In this document: positions 2,235-35,202 of the stretch, one piece after another
How positions within the stretch are numbered: position 1 is the stretch's first letter
Layout of the letters: each line of letters starts with the position of its first letter
Assembly: GCA_035291665.1 (NCBI GenBank)
Contig: DATDRP010000001.1
Location: 223,127 to 287,126 of the forward strand
DNA length: 64,000 nucleotides
Source: Patescibacteria group bacterium
Lineage (GTDB): Bacteria; Patescibacteriota; Microgenomatia; UBA8517
Direction: 5' to 3'
Notes under the pieces: generated by a model
Database searches by the model: none
What the model was told of the DNA's origin: nothing
Seen by the model: the letters and a program-made list of their open reading frames with translations, nothing else
Made by a program: the position numbers and the translations under genes

Positions 2235-3503
2235 TCATTTTGATCGGGAAAGTTCGTTTTCTATTGCGAGCAGCCGGTTATATTTTACTACCCGTTCTCC
2301 TCTTGCCGGGGCACCGAATTTTACATAATCTGCACCGACTCCAGTTGCAAAATCGGCTATAAACCAATCGGTTGTTTCACCGGAGCGATGAGAAACAATA
2401 ATTTTCCAATTTGCACCCCTTGCAAGCTTAATAACCTGTAAGGTTTCAGTGACAGTACCAATCTGGTTTGGCTTAACCAAAATGGCATTGCAAGCTTTTT
2501 CTTTTATCGCTTTTTGAACTCTTTCAAAATTTGTTGCAAGAAGATCATCTCCAACCATCAGAATTTGGCCTTGAAATTCATTATAAATTTTCTTCCAGCT
2601 TTCCCAAGCATCTTCCTGGAACATGTCTTCCAATAAAGCAAGGTGGTAGTTTGCATTAATTGATTTATAGTAATCAAGAAGTTCATTGTCTGTCATGGGT
2701 GAAGATTTATCACGGATTGTATAAACGCCGTTTTTATAAAAAACCGATGCAGCTACATCAAGGCCCAAAAAGACATCCTTACCCAAAGAATAATCTGATT
2801 CGTTTATGGATTCGACCATTATTTCCAAAGCATCGGCATTTGTGAATAAATTCGGCGCATATCCTCCCTCATCGCCAACTGAATGTATGGCACCTCTTCT
2901 TTTTAGGTTGCCACCGATCTTCATGTAAATCTCAACTCCCATCCGCAAGCCATCAGAAAATTTCTTTGAGGTTGCAGGTATAACATGGAATTCCTGAAAA
3001 TCCAAGTTTCCGGCTCCATGAAGACCTCCGTTGATCATATTGAAAAGCGGTGTAGAGGCATGAGGACTTGCTGTTATTCCCATATTGGATGCAAGATTAT
3101 AGTAATGTTTGTAAAGTGGGATCCCTTGTGCAATAGCTGCTGTTTTTGAAATTACAACCGATGCTGCAAGTATTGCATTACCTCCGTACTTTGATTTATT
3201 TTTTGTTCCGTCGAGAGAAATCAATTTATTGTCTACTCCGAATTGGTCCGTAATTTCCATGCCAACTAAGGCAGGTCCCAGTATCGTATTTACATTATTT
3301 ACCGCTTTTAAGACTCCTTTCCCCAAATATCTGGGTGAGTCGGTGTCGCGTAGTTCAAGTGCTTCATATGTCCCGGTGGAAGCTCCTGACGGAACAGATG
3401 CGACTCCAACGTGGCCTGTGTCTGTAACACAGACTGCCTCAACCGTAGGTGTTCCGCGGGAATCCAGTATTTCTCTTGCAAAAATATTTTTTACTTTAGC
3501 CAT
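2235..3503 (-). CDS. eno: Enolase (phosphopyruvate hydratase)
   Basis: Begins MAKVKNIFAREILDSRGTPTVEAVCVT and has the full-length enolase signature. 422 aa. Confidence 0.95.
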   Translation of the reverse strand: MAKVKNIFAREILDSRGTPTVEAVCVTDTGHVGVASVPSGASTGTYEALELRDTDSPRYLGKGVLKAVNNVNTILGPALVGMEITDQFGVDNKLISLDGTKNKSKYGGNAILAASVVISKTAAIAQGIPLYKHYYNLASNMGITASPHASTPLFNMINGGLHGAGNLDFQEFHVIPATSKKFSDGLRMGVEIYMKIGGNLKRRGAIHSVGDEGGYAPNLFTNADALEIMVESINESDYSLGKDVFLGLDVAASVFYKNGVYTIRDKSSPMTDNELLDYYKSINANYHLALLEDMFQEDAWESWKKIYNEFQGQILMVGDDLLATNFERVQKAIKEKACNAILVKPNQIGTVTETLQVIKLARGANWKIIVSHRSGETTDWFIADFATGVGADYVKFGAPARGERVVKYNRLLAIENELSRSK

Positions 3504-29340: not shown

Positions 29341-29470
29341 AAACTTAAATCGCAGAAGAATTATAGCTGATCTATGAAATCTGGACAATAGACGATGTGT
29401 TTCAGATGTTTTACAAATCTCATTTTCAAATTTTATTGATTTTAAATACTCACTATGCCAGTATTAAATA

Positions 29471-30010
29471 TTGGGAAGTATTAATAGAACGGGGGTGATC
29501 TATTTGAAAAATATATTTATTGTTTCGGCAGTATTGGTATTTTTTGCTCTTCTTGCCCTATCTTTGAGACCAACTACAAAAGTTGCCGGAGTCTCGGATT
29601 CAAATGGTATGCCTCTGTATGTGATTATTGAAGTTAACTGGGACGGAACAGGCATGGGTGACTGGAAAGTTTGGGGTCCCAAAAATGAACCGGTTGTCGG
29701 TACAGGTACAGTTTTGTCCGAATGTACGGAATGTCTTGAGATGAACTATAATTTTGAATTCAAGGGAAAGACGGTTCAGTTTAATGAAACTTATGTTTCT
29801 ACTGTTGACGGAAAACCTCAATCCCATAAAGTTGTCTTGACAGACACAGACGGTGATGGATCTTATACAGGATCATTACCAGCAGCCAGATATAATTTAC
29901 AGGAAGGATATATCTATTTGGACAGGATTGATTATGAGGCTGAATTTGGTAATGGAAAAGTGTCATCATTCAGATATTTTGAGTACGAGCATAAGAAATT
30001 ACTTAAGTAG
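29471..30010 (+). CDS. Secreted or membrane-anchored hypothetical protein
   Basis: N-terminal signal/anchor IFIVSAVLVFFALLALS. 179 aa. Confidence 0.45.
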   Translation: MGSINRTGVIYLKNIFIVSAVLVFFALLALSLRPTTKVAGVSDSNGMPLYVIIEVNWDGTGMGDWKVWGPKNEPVVGTGTVLSECTECLEMNYNFEFKGKTVQFNETYVSTVDGKPQSHKVVLTDTDGDGSYTGSLPAARYNLQEGYIYLDRIDYEAEFGNGKVSSFRYFEYEHKKLLK

Positions 30011-30114
30011 TCACGCTATACCTTAATTTTCAGCGAATTTAAATTCGGTATAACGAATCAATCCTCTGGATAATCGGATAGAGTAAGTGTCTAATGGAGA
30101 AGTGGAAATAATAT

Positions 30115-30714
30115 TTAGTCCTCTTGTGTGTAAATGACGCTTTTACAATATTGAACACCCTTTTCCCACCAACCTCGAATCAATACTCCCACGACCTTAC
30201 CCTCTTTAGTAAGCAACGGAGAACCCGAACAGCCAGGATAAGCTGTCTGTATTTCTTCAGATCCTATATGGTCTACTGTATTTTCATAGCTCCTGTTTAT
30301 TGTTTTTCGTGGATGTGTTTCCAAAGAAAGGCAACCCACATGTGTAGGTTTAACTTCGACTCGGGCACGCTCCCAACCGTTATAAGTTGAATAAATTATT
30401 TCTAAATTTTCACCACTTAAAAGATCATTATCTGATCCATGTTCAAGACCGTCACGATTTATTTCCGGGAGTTCAGATTCAGCAATGTCCTTCCATCCTT
30501 TTTTTTGAAATTGAAGGTTTACAATTGTGCTTGATCCATCATGGGCTTTTGCTTTAAGATTTCTTTGATCAGTGCCTTCAAAAGCAACATGAGCCGCAGT
30601 CGTTAAAACTGTTCTTCCATTTCGTTTGACCCTAAAACCGTTACCTAAAAATCTCTCATTACCATCTTCTCCGACATCATAAAGTTCAAATAAATGTTGT
30701 TCTAACTCTGACAT
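30115..30714 (-). CDS. Trypsin-like serine peptidase (S1 family), no signal peptide
   Basis: His motif LTTAAHV. Ser motif GCSGSPLL, the GDSGGP equivalent. 199 aa. Apparently cytoplasmic. Confidence 0.6.
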   Translation of the reverse strand: MSELEQHLFELYDVGEDGNERFLGNGFRVKRNGRTVLTTAAHVAFEGTDQRNLKAKAHDGSSTIVNLQFQKKGWKDIAESELPEINRDGLEHGSDNDLLSGENLEIIYSTYNGWERARVEVKPTHVGCLSLETHPRKTINRSYENTVDHIGSEEIQTAYPGCSGSPLLTKEGKVVGVLIRGWWEKGVQYCKSVIYTQED

Positions 30715-30780
30715 AATATAGATATTATATTACTATTATAGGTTAAATTCAAAAATGAACAGAGGCATATTCCGTCAGTT

Positions 30781-31221
30781 TTAATAATTCATTACCGATT
30801 TATAATCAGGATTAAGTCTTGGCCAGTATTTTTGAGGCAGATCGATTGTCTCAAAACCCTTTTTTCTTGCAATTCTTTCAATTCTTTTGCTGGGTACAAA
30901 CTTCAAGCAATGAACACCAGCCAGTGCTTGCATTGTCAATGAGCTGATCACCGTATCACATTGTTCACAAGACAAGGGTAAATATAAGCTATCGTTTTCT
31001 ACAATTCTACCTGAACAGGCTGATTTTGGATTTCCTCTTTGAAATACAGTGAATCCACTACTCAAATCTTCATGTTTAAAAGGTCTTATATCAAAATTTA
31101 TCCCGCTTGCCGCTTCTCCCATGAATTCATTGTGCGTAAGAGTGCAGCTGCCATCATTCTTACAATACTGACAATATGGAAAATATCCTCCTTTAATCTC
31201 ATTGCTCTTTTCAACGTTCAT
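30781..31221 (-). CDS. Cys-rich hypothetical protein
   Basis: CQYCKNDGSC near the N-terminus plus a CEQC pair. 146 aa. Its N-terminus is paralogous to the divergent neighbour. Confidence 0.4.
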   Translation of the reverse strand: MNVEKSNEIKGGYFPYCQYCKNDGSCTLTHNEFMGEAASGINFDIRPFKHEDLSSGFTVFQRGNPKSACSGRIVENDSLYLPLSCEQCDTVISSLTMQALAGVHCLKFVPSKRIERIARKKGFETIDLPQKYWPRLNPDYKSVMNY

Positions 31222-31418
31222 AGAAATTAAAACGAATTATATATCTAATTTTAAATGAGTATAAAGTTTTTTACTTTAAGTTTAGTATTTTTGCGGATTG
31301 TACTTGGTAAATTACGATGGTAATCTTGTGAAAGACACAATCAACAATAAGTGATTCGATTCCGACATCTCTCTTAACTTTCCACCCGTACGATTAGTCA
31401 ATTTTTTTATAGATCGAA

Positions 31419-31736
31419 ATGGCCAATGTAGAGAAACAAAGATGTGCTTTTAGTAAAAATGGTGATTGTCTGGCTGAATCAGCAAAACAATATATCAAAA
31501 AAATAGATGAAACTTTTCTCATATCCGGGATCGATCCTGTCAAATCCGGTGTTGAGCCAGAAATATTGGAAAAATACGAACCGGTTTTCAGGAGCCTGTA
31601 TTACGATACTACAGTTGCTACCGGTTTTAAGATAAGAGTTTACTTTTGTGAAGGCTGTGATAATTTCCCGAGCGATGGGAATGATTACTTCTCAAAAATC
31701 AAAAATTCGGGTGAAGCTCCAAGAGACTCCAAATGA
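31419..31736 (+). CDS. Cys-motif hypothetical protein, N-terminal paralog of 30781..31221
   Basis: MANVEKQRCAFSKNGDC versus MNVEKSNE..CQYCKNDGSC. Also CEGC. The 3' end overlaps the convergent FNR-like gene, so the true stop or length is uncertain. Confidence 0.35.
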   Translation: MANVEKQRCAFSKNGDCLAESAKQYIKKIDETFLISGIDPVKSGVEPEILEKYEPVFRSLYYDTTVATGFKIRVYFCEGCDNFPSDGNDYFSKIKNSGEAPRDSK

Positions 31737-32359
31737 CCTCTAATTTCTTTTACAAAGGGTTTCGGACCGCAGACATAAAAATGTTTCGAATAATCGTTGA
31801 TATGTTTTGATAAGAAATTACTGTCAATTCTTCCGTTTTCATAGTTTTCACGCTTTTCTCTTGTTAAAGTCAGGATCAAATTCTGAGGACTTTTTTTGAA
31901 CACATCTTTCCATTCATCTTCAAGAATCACATCGGATGAAGTCTTATTTGAAAAAATAAGTTTGTTATTCCCCAGAAGTCCCCTGCTTCGAAGCATCCGG
32001 AGAATTGCGATAAATGGGGTTACTCCCGCACCACCTGCAATAAACACTCCTTCTCCATCATAATGAATTGCTCCAAACGGTTTTGTGATTAACAATTCCG
32101 AACCGTTATCCAAAGCATGTATCCTTTTTGTGATACCTTGATGGTCATCATATCTTTTTATTGTAAATTCAAGGTCCTCGGCGCTTTCCAAACTTGTAAA
32201 AGTAAAGGGTCTGGTTTCGTCTTTGAGGTCTGGGGTATTAATAGACATGTCTATTGCTTGTCCTGGTGTGTAAGTGAAGCTGGAAGGTTTTTCAATAATA
32301 AATCTCTTTACGTCATGGGTTAACTGAACTGAATCGATAAGCTTTACTTTATAGCTCAT
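31685..32359 (-). CDS. Ferredoxin-NADP reductase-like FAD/NAD(P)-binding oxidoreductase
   Basis: FAD-binding RPFTFTS (RxYS-type) and NAD-binding GGAGVTP. 224 aa. Confidence 0.7.
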   Translation of the reverse strand: MSYKVKLIDSVQLTHDVKRFIIEKPSSFTYTPGQAIDMSINTPDLKDETRPFTFTSLESAEDLEFTIKRYDDHQGITKRIHALDNGSELLITKPFGAIHYDGEGVFIAGGAGVTPFIAILRMLRSRGLLGNNKLIFSNKTSSDVILEDEWKDVFKKSPQNLILTLTREKRENYENGRIDSNFLSKHINDYSKHFYVCGPKPFVKEIRGHLESLGASPEFLIFEK

Positions 32360-32439
32360 TATTCATATATTACATTTATAATCGAATTTGTGTCAAAAAG
32401 AAGTGAAAGTTTTTTATAGACCGAATCACTATTGACAAA

Positions 32440-32458
32440 TTTATACTCATAGTATAAA
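32440..32458. promoter_or_regulatory. Perfect 8-bp inverted repeat TTTATACT-cat-AGTATAAA overlapping the putative promoter of the LysM gene
   Basis: TTGACA at 32432-32437. The palindrome arms overlap the -10 TATAAA at 32453-32458. Confidence 0.35.
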
Positions 32459-32495
32459 TTTGCACTCAACAAATGGTCTTGCCCGAAATTAATCA

Positions 32496-33128: not shown

Positions 33129-33205
33129 TCCACAAATATAAGCCCGTTTCATTTTGAATTTGAAAGCCTTTCCACTATAATTTCAGGTATATCTGTACCT
33201 ATTAT

Positions 33206-33276
33206 GCGGGATTAGTTAAGCGGCCTAACGCTACCTTCCCAAGGTAGAGAAACGGGTTCAACTCCCGTATCCCGCT
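33206..33276 (+). tRNA. tRNA-Gly (anticodon CCC)
   Basis: Folded manually: acceptor GCGGGAT/ATCCCGC, D-stem GTTA/TAAC, anticodon stem CTACC/GGTAG with loop TTCCCAA, T-arm ACGGG-TTCAACT-CCCGT. 71 nt. Confidence 0.7.
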
Positions 33277-33360
33277 CTCGTTGCACTCGATCGGGGTACT
33301 TACGTTTATGATGCAATTTAAAGTCTTGCAGGTTATGCTTACAACTCCCGTATCCCGCTC
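33258..33360 (+). repeat. Duplicated tRNA-Gly 3' end (19 bp, CAACTCCCGTATCCCGCTC), second copy 66 bp downstream
   Basis: Exact copies at 33258-33276 and 33342-33360. Confidence 0.7.
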
Positions 33361-33998
33361 CAATCAACAGTTTTCTACATAAATGTACAGAAAGTTACTA
33401 GAAACTACCTAAAAACGATCATAAAATGAGTTATAATTGAATTATGCAAATACTTGTTTTTCTTGGATTTCTTATGCTCATAGTTCTTTCTTTGAAAGGT
33501 AAACTATGGGCTTATATTGCCACCATTGTTTTAGGTTCATTGTATTTTCCTGCCAGTGTCGGTTTTCAGTTGAATATTAAAACTTGTGAGGTATTTTTCG
33601 ACCTGCCGCTTGCGATATATTCTTTGACTAATTATAAGCACATCATATTGTTTGCTATATTTTTTCTAATGACAAGAAGGCAAGTCAAGAAGAGTGGTTG
33701 GGTAAGTTTTGGCTGGGGAGCTTTAGGAACACTACTATTTGCTCTAATAATAGAACTTTTACAGGGGTGGACCGGAGATGGTCATTGTCGCATGAGAGAT
33801 CTTGTTCCAGACTTCGCTGGCGTTCTACTGGGACAAATGACGTATAGTTTATGGACGACCATTAAACGTACAAAACAGCGAAGGATTTAATACCCATATG
33901 TTCTTTAAGAAAACTAAGCTAGAGTTCCAAACTAGGCTCTATAAGAGGTCTTAGGTTCGAGCAAAGCATGGTGACCAGTTCTCGTTGCACTCGATCGG
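33277..33998 (+). repeat. 20-bp direct repeats (TCTCGTTGCACTCGATCGGG) bracketing the VanZ-like gene
   Basis: Copy 1 abuts the tRNA-Gly 3' end at 33277-33296. Copy 2 is at 33979-33998. Confidence 0.7.
33444..33890 (+). CDS. VanZ-like family membrane protein
   Basis: Four transmembrane helices. IELLQGWTGDGHCRMRDLVPDFAGVLLG is the VanZ-like signature. Confidence 0.6.
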   Translation: MQILVFLGFLMLIVLSLKGKLWAYIATIVLGSLYFPASVGFQLNIKTCEVFFDLPLAIYSLTNYKHIILFAIFFLMTRRQVKKSGWVSFGWGALGTLLFALIIELLQGWTGDGHCRMRDLVPDFAGVLLGQMTYSLWTTIKRTKQRRI

Positions 33999-34062
33999 GT
34001 TATTATCATTGAAAGTACAATTAAACTTGACATTAGTAGTAGAACTTTTCTAATATAGATAT

Positions 34063-34311
34063 ATGCAAATGTTTAATCTTCATAAAAGTAAAATTTATTT
34101 AGTAGTTTTTATCGTAACTGCTTCAATACTCGCCTGGGGTGTTTGGAACAATTACAGGCCTCAAATGGTGTATGCAAGCTGTGCGGACATTGCAGAAAAG
34201 ACTTCAAACTTAAGATCCCGGAAAGATTTTCTTAAAACCGATACTTCGAAGGATTTTGAAGAAGTCTTCAACGAATGCCTTTCAGATGCCGGTTATTTTG
34301 AAGTTAAGTAA
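34063..34311 (+). CDS. Small membrane-anchored hypothetical protein
   Basis: 82 aa with one N-terminal transmembrane helix. A TTGACA promoter-like hexamer sits about 30 nt upstream. Confidence 0.35.
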   Translation: MQMFNLHKSKIYLVVFIVTASILAWGVWNNYRPQMVYASCADIAEKTSNLRSRKDFLKTDTSKDFEEVFNECLSDAGYFEVK

Positions 34312-34390
34312 ATTCTCCTTTTCCAAAAATCCGATCAGATTCCTTGGTATCTCACATTTTGCTATAATCAACCAAAGAAGGACGTTATAA

Positions 34391-34463
34391 GCCTACGTAG
34401 CTCAGTTGGTAGAGCAACGGTATCGTAAACCGTGGGTCGTCGGTTCAATTCCGACCGTAGGCT
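34391..34463 (+). tRNA. tRNA-Thr (anticodon CGT)
   Basis: Folded manually: acceptor GCCTACG/CGTAGGC, D-arm TAGCTCAGTTGGTAGAGC, anticodon loop ATCGTAA, T-loop TTCAATT. 73 nt. Confidence 0.85.
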
Positions 34464-34485
34464 CAAGATACTATTAAAAATTAAT

Positions 34486-35202
34486 ATGCCAAATTATTAC
34501 TCCCGCAGAAGCAAAGTCCAGGATAAAAAAAATAAATCGAGCGCTTTCATCCTATTTTCTCTGACAATTGTAATTTTAATTCTTGTTTTTTTCTACGGAA
34601 TACCTGCGATGATTAAATTTGCCGTTTTTATTGCCGATCTTAAGAAAACTTCGCAGGTTGATGAATCTTCTGACACTCTCGCCCCTTCAACGCCGAGGAT
34701 TGATTCGATTTCTGAATTCACCAATAACGCCGACCTGGAAATCGTCGGTTATACGGAATCGGGGGCAATTGTCACCATCTATTACAATAATAAAAATGAA
34801 GAAACCGTTGCCAATAATGAAGGCGGTTTCAGGTTCAAAATTAGCTTAAAAGAAGGATTAAATACTTTTTCATTTATCTCAAAAGATTCTTCCGGAAATG
34901 AGAGTCCGCGGTCAAAAACACAAACCGTTACATATGACAAAACTCCGCCTTCATTAGACATCAAATCCCCCCCCGACAATGGAAACGTATATGGGGATAT
35001 TAACAAAAATCTTGAAATTACAGGTACAACTGACCCCGAAATCAAAATCTATGCTAACGACAGATTGACAAGCTCGGATGAAAATGGAAACTTTAAAATC
35101 CGAGTATATTTATCGGAAGGAGCAAACAGCATTACGCTGAAAGCTGTTGACAATGCGCAAAACGAAACAGAAAAGTCTCTAACTATCAATTTTTATCCTT
35201 AA
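34486..35202 (+). CDS. Membrane-anchored protein with bacterial Ig-like repeats
   Basis: Start moved to ATG 34486, because the tracked ORF start at 34432 overlaps tRNA-Thr. N-terminal transmembrane helix and two Ig-like beta-sandwich repeats. The C-terminus overlaps the convergent gene. Confidence 0.5.
   Translation: MPNYYSRRSKVQDKKNKSSAFILFSLTIVILILVFFYGIPAMIKFAVFIADLKKTSQVDESSDTLAPSTPRIDSISEFTNNADLEIVGYTESGAIVTIYYNNKNEETVANNEGGFRFKISLKEGLNTFSFISKDSSGNESPRSKTQTVTYDKTPPSLDIKSPPDNGNVYGDINKNLEITGTTDPEIKIYANDRLTSSDENGNFKIRVYLSEGANSITLKAVDNAQNETEKSLTINFYP

What the first reader, a model, noticed from the sequence alone, without database searches (positions are those of the whole stretch)
33206..33998. 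tRNA-Gly with duplicated 3' end and a second 20-bp direct repeat bracketing a VanZ-like gene
The last 19 nt of tRNA-Gly (CAACTCCCGTATCCCGCTC) are repeated 66 bp downstream at 33342-33360. The 20-mer TCTCGTTGCACTCGATCGGG, which immediately follows the tRNA at 33277-33296, reappears at 33979-33998. The VanZ-like membrane protein gene (33444..33890) lies between the second tRNA-end copy and the second 20-mer. The pattern fits an original tandem tRNA-end + 20-mer unit that was duplicated by an integration event and then split by, or carrying, the VanZ gene. This would be a minimal mobile insertion at a tRNA.
Basis: seen in the sequence. Interest (0 to 1): 0.55.

Follow-up and report, generated by a model that had tools for sequence, protein, structure and literature searches.

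The report
Recombination scar beside a tRNA gene
A small membrane-protein gene (VanZ-like) sits in a gap between two tRNA genes that are normally adjacent, flanked by short exact repeats of the tRNA end and its trailer; this looks like an ordinary scar of past DNA acquisition at a tRNA hotspot, not an active mobile element.

Summary
The repeats are real. Five independent assemblies give the same sequence, and both repeats are far beyond chance. The 20-mer lies 1 nt left of the stated coordinates, at 33276-33295 and 33980-33999. The two repeats abut in the first copy, sharing the 2 nt TC, as one 37-nt unit: the last 18 nt of tRNA-Gly plus 19 nt of trailer. Downstream that unit is split. Its tRNA half is at 33342-33360, followed by CA so that it reads CCA. 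Its trailer half is at 33980-33999. VanZ lies between the two halves.

In related Patescibacteria, tRNA-Gly(CCC) and tRNA-Thr(CGT) are 5-10 bp apart, or the gap holds unrelated cargo of 1-4.5 kb. None of these relatives has VanZ there. The closest VanZ homologues (63-68% identity) sit in unrelated accessory contexts. So VanZ is acquired cargo at a tRNA-linked insertion hotspot.

No integrase, transposase or terminal inverted repeats were found. No second copy of the module, no close-relative empty site and no population variant turned up. The repeat order (A-B-A-B) cannot come from one simple insertion with a target duplication.

Best reading: a fixed, non-autonomous recombination scar, most simply a single-crossover integration of a ~0.7-kb circle at the 20-mer. 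It is a known kind of feature and of low interest.

The parts
33206..33276 (+). tRNA-Gly(CCC), intact, with no encoded CCA (followed by CTC)
   Evidence: 60.4 bits. It is 100% identical to tRNA-Gly in L015, L016, L022, L023, L034 and L036.
33259..33277 (+). R1a: the 19-mer, running from the T-loop to the discriminator plus 1 nt. It is the left half of the 37-nt unit S.
33276..33295 (+). R2a: the 20-mer, made of the discriminator T plus 19 nt of trailer. It overlaps R1a by TC and is the right half of S.
33296..33341 (+). Spacer C, 46 nt. It resembles nothing fetched. In-register similarity to the sequence after R2b is weak (15/26).
33342..33362 (+). R1b: the orphan tRNA-Gly 3' fragment (19-mer at 33342-33360), which reads on into CCA (33360-33362)
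33363..33443 (+). Leader of VanZ, with promoter-like boxes: TAGAAA-17-TAAAAT at 33399-33427 and TATAAT at 33432-37, 6 nt before the ATG
   Evidence: plus direct reading
33444..33890 (+). VanZ-like membrane protein, 148 aa; the cargo gene
   Evidence: Pfam PF04892 at 29.3 bits against a gathering cutoff of 30.1. All 23 aligned homologues match VanZ. NCBI names it VanZ family protein, HLE48696.1.
33891..33979 (+). Spacer E. It has no significant structure or tRNA similarity. It holds part of the cluster of strain differences (33854-33940).
33980..33999 (+). R2b: the second copy of the 20-mer, 27 nt upstream of the -35 box of the next gene
34027..34311 (+). Promoter-like site (TTGACA-18-TAATAT, 34027-34056) and an 82-aa membrane-anchored protein (34063-34311). 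This is older resident cargo of the same gap; homologues sit before tRNA-Thr in six related contigs.
34391..34463 (+). tRNA-Thr(CGT), the right boundary of the variable gap

Best explanation
The locus is a fixed, non-autonomous recombination scar in a tRNA-linked insertion hotspot of a Patescibacteria (Microgenomates/Woesebacteria-like) chromosome.

Shown:
- The ancestral arrangement is a tight tRNA-Gly(CCC)-tRNA-Thr(CGT) pair.
- In this lineage the gap has been filled repeatedly with unrelated cargo. Here it holds an 82-aa protein gene and, upstream of it, the VanZ-like gene.

Inferred mechanism for the last event:
- The recipient carried tRNA-Gly followed directly by the 20-mer, as the contiguous 37-nt unit S.
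- A circular DNA of about 704 bp, in the order 20-mer, 46-nt spacer, tRNA-Gly 3' fragment with CCA, leader, VanZ, spacer E, integrated by one crossover within the 20-mer. The crossover was catalysed either by a recombinase acting in trans or by host homologous recombination.
- This duplicated the 20-mer (33276-33295 and 33980-33999). It placed the donor's orphan tRNA end inside the insert at 33342.
- The orphan's CCA marks it as coming from a tRNA-Gly gene of the kind seen in other lineages. Those genes have identical tRNA bodies and an encoded CCA, unlike the tRNA genes of this genome.

This accounts for the interleaved repeat order, the sharp repeat edges and the absence of any recombinase. 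VanZ is expressed from its own promoter-like leader. By family analogy it modifies or protects the cell envelope.
For: Hotspot:
- Synteny LysM / tRNA-Gly / [gap] / tRNA-Thr / Big6 / Wzy / GT2 holds in L005, L010, L015, L029 and L042.
- The gap is 5-10 bp in L012, L026, L027, L033 and L042 and about 90 bp in L029.
- The gap is 1114 bp in the window, 1172 bp in L015, 1843 bp in L010, 4078 bp in L005 and 4.5 kb in L053. Each holds different cargo: an endonuclease/exonuclease/phosphatase-family (EEP) protein, an unknown membrane protein, a P-type ATPase (by reading, not Pfam-scanned) plus a PHP protein, and a 1254-aa protein with no Pfam match. L054 holds a LexA-like protein plus a proteasome-like protein (weak Pfam match); its gap length is unknown because tRNA-Gly is not on the contig.

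VanZ as cargo:
- tblastn finds no VanZ in any of 43 loci sharing the tRNA end.
- The nearest homologues are 63-68% identical and lie in unrelated contexts, next to PLDc_2, TraC/TraG-like, Abi and toxin-antitoxin genes. Similarity stops at the CDS edges.
- Homologues of 40-50% identity occur in an acidobacterial MAG and on a Gemmatirosa megaplasmid.

Geometry:
- R1a and R2a abut with a 2-nt overlap, and the order is R1a, R2a, R1b, R2b.
- An A-B-A-B order requires the inserted DNA to carry a copy of a sequence next to the target. A circle integrating at R2 provides exactly that.

CCA:
- Only the orphan has it. The window's tRNA-Thr, tRNA-Asp and tRNA-Gly do not.
- L016, L023 and L036, whose tRNA-Gly is identical, do encode it.

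No mobility genes in the window or in the gaps of the relatives examined (L005, L010, L015, L053, L054, L057).

Analogous scars occur in the same hotspot elsewhere. L054 has a 118-bp direct repeat of about 78% identity that contains a tRNA-Gly-end-like core and flanks two cargo genes.
Against: - No empty site with the 20-mer was found. The predicted junction gave 0 hits in metagenome contigs, though that collection did not return the window's own contig either.
- No donor-type junction (tRNA-Gly-CCAATCAAC...) occurs among the 43 genome loci.
- A crossover on only 20 bp of identity is inefficient for RecA, and no recombinase is identified.
- Why the circle would carry the 20-mer 46 nt to the left of a tRNA fragment is unexplained without a further prior event.
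- VanZ has native-like composition: GC 0.378 and GC3 0.32, against a window GC of 0.363.
- About 20 contigs of this population are all collinear, so there is no sign of current mobility.
Confidence: 0.45

Rival explanations
1. Two-step integrase history. First, a tyrosine-integrase island integrated into the T-loop-to-3'-end segment of tRNA-Gly. Its attP carried the whole 37-nt unit, so the unit was duplicated. The island was later deleted down to the 46-nt spacer. Second, a 619-bp VanZ segment was inserted into the orphan copy exactly at the tRNA-end/trailer boundary, at the TC dinucleotide. That step would be a 2-bp target duplication, the central dinucleotide of a serine recombinase, or a microhomology join.
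For: - The orphan fragment starts in the T-loop and has the same orientation as the tRNA. This is the commonest class of displaced fragment in Islander: 3760 of 3919 islands have a 3' fragment and 1836 have T-stem crossover sites (PMC4383910).
- The 2-nt TC is shared by both halves.
- An 11/12 match to the start of the 20-mer directly follows tRNA-Asp in L022. That could be a conserved element arm.
- L020 and L037 show partial tRNA-Gly duplications at short range.
Against: - It needs a whole island to collapse to 46 nt while both 37-nt sites stayed perfect.
- It needs a second, independent insertion to hit the junction of a non-functional orphan.
- The 619-bp segment has no terminal inverted repeats.
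- There is no integrase in 64 kb.
- No viral contig carries either repeat.
Confidence: 0.25
2. VanZ is the older resident: tRNA-Gly-CCA, leader, VanZ, spacer, 20-mer, p82. The contiguous 37-nt unit arose in a sister lineage by deletion of VanZ at the TC microhomology. DNA from that VanZ-less sister then recombined into this genome, anchored by homology on the LysM/tRNA side and joined illegitimately in the resident T-loop. The result was a net addition of 83 bp. Nothing here was ever a mobile element.
For: - VanZ composition is native-like.
- The strain variant L070 has 10 differences clustered in 87 bp at the VanZ 3' end and spacer E, and none in the flanks. This shows allelic recombination at this locus.
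- No mobility genes are present.
- The 83-bp piece needs no circular element in this model.
Against: - No syntenic relative has VanZ in the gap.
- VanZ homologues are scattered in accessory regions.
- The model needs a deletion plus a homology-facilitated illegitimate join.
- The CCA on the 'resident' tRNA end conflicts with this genome's other tRNA genes, which lack CCA.
Confidence: 0.12
3. The repeats are functional motifs kept identical by selection rather than scars. For example, the 20-mer could be a tRNA-trailer processing or termination signal, or a regulator site used both after tRNA-Gly and upstream of the p82 promoter. The orphan tRNA end could be a regulatory decoy.
For: - The 20-mer is exact while its flanks are dissimilar.
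- R2b lies 27 nt upstream of a good -35/-10 pair.
- A similar 12-mer follows tRNA-Asp in L022.
- There is a weak hairpin with the acceptor strand, -7.7 kcal/mol.
Against: - Fold z-scores are -0.97 to +0.39, indistinguishable from shuffles.
- No Rfam match other than the tRNAs reaches its gathering score.
- The motif is absent from 77 other tRNA trailers and from the p82 upstream regions of relatives.
- Apart from this locus, the rest of the 64-kb window holds no copy, and the metagenome scan gave only chance hits.
- This reading does not explain why the two repeats abut as one unit.
Confidence: 0.06
4. Assembly artefact: a spurious join or duplication at k-mer-sized (19-20 nt) overlaps.
For: The repeat lengths are close to the small k values used by iterative de Bruijn assemblers. 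Several short contigs break near the tRNA.
Against: - Five or more independent assemblies from different samples and pipelines, including k=31 Logan and k141 MEGAHIT contigs, are identical through all four repeat copies.
- The contig breaks fall inside the tRNA, which is 100% identical across species. That explains the graph branching.
Confidence: 0.02

Closest known systems
Genomic islands integrated in tRNA genes (Islander definition: an intact tDNA plus a displaced 3' fragment marking the island ends; Williams 2002; Hudson et al. 2015, PMC4383910)
   Same: An intact tRNA is followed downstream by an orphan 3' fragment in the same orientation, starting in the T-loop. The locus is hypervariable among relatives.
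   Different: Only 64 nt lie between the tRNA and the fragment. The cargo gene lies beyond the fragment. There is no integrase. A second repeat is interleaved with the first.
tRNA gene fragments as remnants of integration events (van der Gulik et al. 2023, PMC9897764)
   Same: A partial tRNA gene left next to its full copy, described there as a pervasive remnant of incoming DNA.
   Different: The cases described there flank 9-23 kb (up to ~121 kb) of integrated DNA (viral or genomic-island) and have repeats of about 44 bp. Here the fragment is 19 nt, at 83 bp distance, with a single-gene cargo.
Campbell-type single-crossover integration of a non-replicating circle, and homology-facilitated illegitimate recombination (de Vries and Wackernagel 2002; cited from my own knowledge, not read here)
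   Same: It yields a direct duplication of the shared segment around the insert and needs no element-encoded recombinase.
   Different: Only 20 bp of identity is available here. Neither the donor nor the circle has been observed.
Recombinase-less modules moved in trans (pdif modules, Xer-dependent IMEX elements, integron cassettes; cited from my own knowledge)
   Same: One gene bounded by short recombination-site-like repeats, with no recombinase inside.
   Different: The 20-mer has no clear dyad symmetry (7/10 imperfect arms). No other module with this site was found anywhere. No integron or Xer context is present.
VanZ family (PF04892). VanZ of the VanA cluster reduces binding of lipoglycopeptide antibiotics (PMC7146870).
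   Same: A small multi-pass membrane protein that matches the VanZ profile across the conserved E...R-x-R-D...P-D...G region.
   Different: The score is just below Pfam's gathering cutoff (29.3 against 30.1). This is a distinct subfamily with invariant Cys48 and a C-R-M-R-D-L-x-P-D motif. Its function is untested, and the host is a Patescibacterium.

Membership tests
tRNA-integrated genomic island (Islander criteria) | An intact tDNA plus a cognate 3' fragment downstream in the same orientation | tested here: met
   19/19 identity at 33342-33360, + strand, downstream of the tRNA
tRNA-integrated genomic island (Islander criteria) | An integrase gene between the tDNA and the fragment | tested here: not met
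   Only 64 nt lie between them. None of the ORFs scanned across the 64-kb window (most of those of at least 120 aa) is an integrase, recombinase or transposase.
tRNA-integrated genomic island (Islander criteria) | Cargo lies between the tDNA and its displaced fragment | tested here: not met
   VanZ (33444-33890) lies to the right of the fragment
tRNA-integrated genomic island (Islander criteria) | An uninterrupted (empty) site exists in relatives | tested here: inconclusive
   Distant relatives have tRNA-Gly and tRNA-Thr 5-10 bp apart. No close relative is available, and the predicted junction gave 0 hits.
Transposon / IS / MITE | Terminal inverted repeats | tested here: not met
   The best alignment of the two ends scores 12, against a shuffle mean of 12.6; p=0.70
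Transposon / IS / MITE | Multiple copies in the genome or in related genomes | tested here: not met
   The flanks and repeats are unique in the window and in 70+ fetched loci. The metagenome scan gave only chance hits. The rest of the genome was not searchable.
Transposon / IS / MITE | Target-site duplication | tested here: inconclusive
   The 2-nt TC shared at both edges of the 619-bp segment would fit a 2-bp duplication, but it has a 1-in-16 chance of arising by accident.
Generic intergenic repeat family (REP-like) | Many dispersed copies | tested here: not met
   There are two copies each in 64 kb, both in this locus. Viral contigs gave 0 hits. The 9 metagenome hits are all in unrelated DNA of higher G+C (0.47-0.72).
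Recombinase-less cassette (integron cassette, pdif module) | The same flanking site is shared by other cassettes, and a cognate recombinase is present | tested here: not met
   No other occurrence of the site and no recombinase in the window
VanZ family (PF04892) | Match to the family profile at the curated threshold | tested here: inconclusive
   29.3 bits against a cutoff of 30.1, E=1.5e-6, over profile positions 55-125. All 23 aligned homologues hit VanZ at E<=1e-3. NCBI names it VanZ family protein.
VanZ family (PF04892) | Confers lipoglycopeptide tolerance or an envelope function | not testable with these tools
   Needs expression and phenotype assays

The most novel reading that the evidence does not exclude
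The 704-bp unit (20-mer to 20-mer) is a functional, recombinase-less single-gene cassette. A chromosomally encoded recombinase acting in trans inserts it at a 20-bp site abutting tRNA genes. If so, this would be a cassette system specific to Patescibacteria that uses tRNA trailers as docking sites. The 11/12 match directly after tRNA-Asp in L022 would then be a second docking site.
Probability: 0.06. Interest if true: 0.6.

Novelty: new member of a known kind. Interest (0 to 1): 0.22.

Why it matters
The finding documents that the tight tRNA-Gly/tRNA-Thr pair of Patescibacteria becomes a recurrent landing pad for small, recombinase-free cargo in one lineage. It also gives a precisely mapped example, with interleaved 19-nt and 20-nt repeats, of how a streamlined genome with few mobile elements still gains accessory envelope genes. 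This is useful as an annotation caveat about orphan tRNA fragments, and as a marker locus for strain-level comparison. It does not change the current understanding of tRNA-linked integration.

Tried and rejected
- **Viral contigs.** Both repeats gave 0 hits. A VanZ family search in viral contigs found no relative. A phage blastn of 33200-34100 found no match.
- **Predicted empty-site junction** (tRNA end + 20-mer + TTAT) in metagenome contigs: 0 hits. This is weak evidence, because the 19-mer scan of the same collection did not return the window's own contig.
- **19-mer scan of metagenomes.** The 9 hits are all chance matches in unrelated DNA of higher G+C (0.47-0.72).
- **Longer homology behind the repeats.** The 51-nt, 75% family reported is carried by the exact 20-mer.
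  - Local and gapped alignments of the flanks are not significant: p=0.41, 0.13, 0.57, 0.56 and 0.2-0.3.
  - Only an ungapped in-register test after the 20-mer is suggestive: 15/26, p about 0.01, post hoc.
- **A decayed tRNA in spacer E.** ARAGORN at a 70% threshold reports a poor tRNA-Ser-like fold on the minus strand (33911-33996) with many mismatches. Rfam finds nothing. I rejected it as noise.
- **RNA structure of the repeat regions.** Z-scores range from -0.97 to +0.39.
- **Terminal inverted repeats of the 619/621-bp segment:** none.
- **Compositional foreignness of VanZ:** none.
- **Population variants lacking VanZ or the 83 bp.** All contigs found through VanZ, p82 and LysM are collinear. 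Contig breaks at 33234, 33248 and 33279 are explained by cross-species identity of the tRNA.
- **Closest LysM relative** (63% identity): its contigs end just before the tRNA, so they are uninformative.
- **Alignment of p82 upstream regions across relatives:** only promoter boxes align.

Full report
**1.

tRNA-Gly(CCC) occupies 33206-33276 (Rfam, 60.4 bits; ARAGORN). The 19-mer CAACTCCCGTATCCCGCTC occurs exactly at 33259-33277 and 33342-33360 and nowhere else in the window, even with three mismatches (0.01 expected).

The VanZ-like ORF (33444-33890) lies between the second 19-mer and the second 20-mer.

The sequence is not an assembly artefact. Contigs from three JGI samples, an ENA scaffold, a Logan k=31 contig and several MEGAHIT contigs are identical across the locus. 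Short contigs that break at 33234, 33248 and 33279 do so inside a tRNA that is 100% identical in several other species. These breaks reflect graph branching, not strain variation.

**2.

- The two repeats overlap by TC in the first copy. Positions 33259-33295 are therefore one contiguous 37-nt unit, S: 18 nt of tRNA plus 19 nt of trailer.
- The second copy of S is split. Its tRNA half is at 33342-33360 and its trailer half at 33980-33999. Deleting 621 nt would rebuild it.
- The order is R1a, R2a, R1b, R2b, that is, interleaved. One insertion with its own target duplication gives a single flanking pair. Two independent insertions give nested or tandem pairs. An A-B-A-B order means the inserted DNA already carried a copy of a sequence next to the target.
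- The orphan tRNA end reads on into CCA (33360-33362). The window's tRNA-Gly, tRNA-Thr and tRNA-Asp genes do not encode CCA. Identical tRNA-Gly genes in L016, L023 and L036 do.
- The repeat edges are sharp.
  - Flank alignments are not significant.
  - One post hoc in-register test after the 20-mer gives 15/26 matches, p about 0.01.

**3. Context**

The window is a housekeeping chromosomal region of a Patescibacteria MAG from the Rifle aquifer. It encodes enolase, PGI, RuvC, LexA, GatB and a polysaccharide gene cluster. No integrase, transposase or other recombinase turned up among the ORFs scanned, which were most of those of at least 120 aa.

**4. Relatives**

A scan of GTDB species representatives for the 18-nt tRNA end returned 43 loci. 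The synteny LysM / tRNA-Gly / gap / tRNA-Thr / Big6 / Wzy / GT2 is shared with L005, L010 (Woesebacteria GW2011_GWA1_39_21, the closest), L015, L029 and L042.

- tRNA-Gly and tRNA-Thr are 5-10 bp apart in L012, L026, L027, L033 and L042, which span Microgenomates, Saccharibacteria and Parcubacteria. The tight pair is therefore ancestral.
- Elsewhere the gap holds unrelated cargo:
  - L010: an endonuclease/exonuclease/phosphatase-family (EEP) gene plus a p82 homologue.
  - L015: a 372-aa membrane protein.
  - L005: a P-type ATPase plus a PHP protein.
  - L053: a 1254-aa protein.
  - L054: a LexA-like protein plus a proteasome-like protein.
  - L057: an HD-domain protein.
  - Sources.
- None of these gaps encodes a recombinase, and none of the 43 loci encodes VanZ.
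- Homologues of the 82-aa protein precede tRNA-Thr in six contigs. That gene is older resident cargo, and VanZ is the most recent addition.

**5. The cargo**

The protein matches Pfam VanZ at 29.3 bits against a cutoff of 30.1. All 23 aligned homologues hit VanZ. The subfamily has invariant C48, S-L-x-N-Y-x-H, E104 and C-R-x-R-D-L-x-P-D.

Its nearest homologues (63-68% identity) lie beside PLDc_2, TraC/TraG-like, Abi and toxin-antitoxin genes. DNA similarity ends at the CDS, and no tRNA is nearby. More distant homologues occur in an acidobacterial MAG and on a Gemmatirosa megaplasmid. None was found in viral contigs. The gene's composition is native-like.

**6. Is the 20-mer a repeat family?**

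No. Viral contigs gave zero hits. The nine metagenome hits are chance matches in unrelated DNA of higher G+C (0.47-0.72). Apart from this locus, the rest of the window has no copy.

One unexplained lead remains. The first 12 nt of the trailer recur with one mismatch directly after tRNA-Asp in L022. It is the only such case among 79 tRNA trailers.

**7. Mechanism**

The simplest history that produces the observed order is as follows.

- The recipient carried tRNA-Gly followed by the 20-mer.
- A circle of about 704 bp (20-mer, 46-nt spacer, tRNA-Gly 3' fragment with CCA, leader, VanZ, spacer E) integrated by one crossover in the 20-mer.
- This duplicated the 20-mer and left the donor's tRNA fragment inside the insert.

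This history explains the interleaving, the sharp edges, the foreign CCA and the lack of a recombinase. It does not explain how the circle came to hold both sequences. No empty site or donor was found.

The main rival is a collapsed integrase island between two copies of S, followed by a separate VanZ insertion at TC. It fits the classic T-loop fragment signature (PMC4383910; PMC9897764). It needs two unlikely steps. A third model makes VanZ ancestral and the first S a recombinant joint brought in from a VanZ-less sister lineage. The clustered differences in strain variant L070 (33854-33940) show that allelic recombination does occur at this locus.

Functional-motif and artefact readings are poorly supported.

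**8. Comparison with known systems**

This works like the scar of a tRNA-linked integration, and the locus is a tRNA-associated hotspot. It is not a member of the Islander class of islands: it has no integrase, the cargo lies outside the tRNA/fragment pair, and only 64 nt lie between them. It is not a transposon or MITE either, having no inverted repeats and no other copies. It is not a repeat family, and it is not a demonstrable cassette system.

**9. Verdict**

It is a new example of a known kind of feature, of low general interest.

The one more novel reading still open is a trans-mobilised single-gene cassette docking at tRNA trailers. I put its probability at about 6%. It can be tested with junction-spanning reads and with the rest of the genome.

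Noticed in passing
window 29341-32495: A 3.1-kb block of five ORFs lies between tRNA-Asp and the LysM gene: a 179-aa protein, a trypsin-like protease, 146-aa and 105-aa proteins, and an FAD/NAD oxidoreductase. In L010, L022 and L034, tRNA-Asp sits only about 150-230 bp from LysM. This is a second lineage-specific variable block beside a tRNA.
   Followed up: partly
L054 5-122 and 2223-2342: A 118-bp direct repeat of about 78% identity contains a tRNA-Gly-3'-end-like core (CCAATTyCCkTAwCCCGCTC). It flanks a LexA-like HTH gene and a 344-aa proteasome-like gene, immediately upstream of the p82 homologue and tRNA-Thr. It looks like an att-like pair around a 2.2-kb insert in the same hotspot.
   Followed up: partly
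L020 about 3200-3445 (minus strand); L037 6561-6770: In two Roizmanbacteria, tRNA-Gly(TCC) is followed by a partial second copy. That copy is interrupted in the anticodon loop by a hairpin-rich insert of roughly 90-125 nt, and its 5' part is degenerate.
   Followed up: partly
L022 1682-1693 (minus strand): TCGGTGCACTCG matches the start of the window's tRNA-Gly trailer / 20-mer at 11 of 12 positions and directly follows tRNA-Asp. It is the only such case among 79 tRNA trailers examined. It is unexplained.
   Followed up: partly
window 33854-33940 (compared with L070): A strain variant that is 99.3% identical over 33604-34957 has all 10 of its differences within 87 bp, at the VanZ C-terminus and the spacer after it. 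They are an in-frame 3-nt deletion and 7 SNPs. This suggests a short recombination tract or relaxed constraint.
   Followed up: partly
L048, L049 and the contig of P0003: VanZ-like homologues repeatedly sit next to a divergently oriented PLDc_2 (phospholipase D-like) gene. In L048 they lie within a region with TraC/TraG-like, Abi and HTH genes. This may be a functional pairing on a conjugative-type element.
   Followed up: no
window 33432-33446 and 34047-34065: Both VanZ and the 82-aa gene begin ATGCAAAT, only 6-10 nt after a -10-like box and without a visible Shine-Dalgarno sequence. Their transcripts may be leaderless.
   Followed up: no
window 34432-34608: The mechanical ORF 34432-35202 starts inside tRNA-Thr. 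The real start of the Big6/Glucodextran_B surface protein is further downstream; JGI calls a 197-aa product starting at 34609.
   Followed up: no
L008 5777-5799; L046 2290-2312: The orphan tRNA end plus the 5 nt before it (GCTTACAACTCCCGTATCCCGCT, 23 nt) is exact in a non-tRNA context in a Bacteroidota MAG and an Ignavibacteria MAG. This is probably chance.
   Followed up: no
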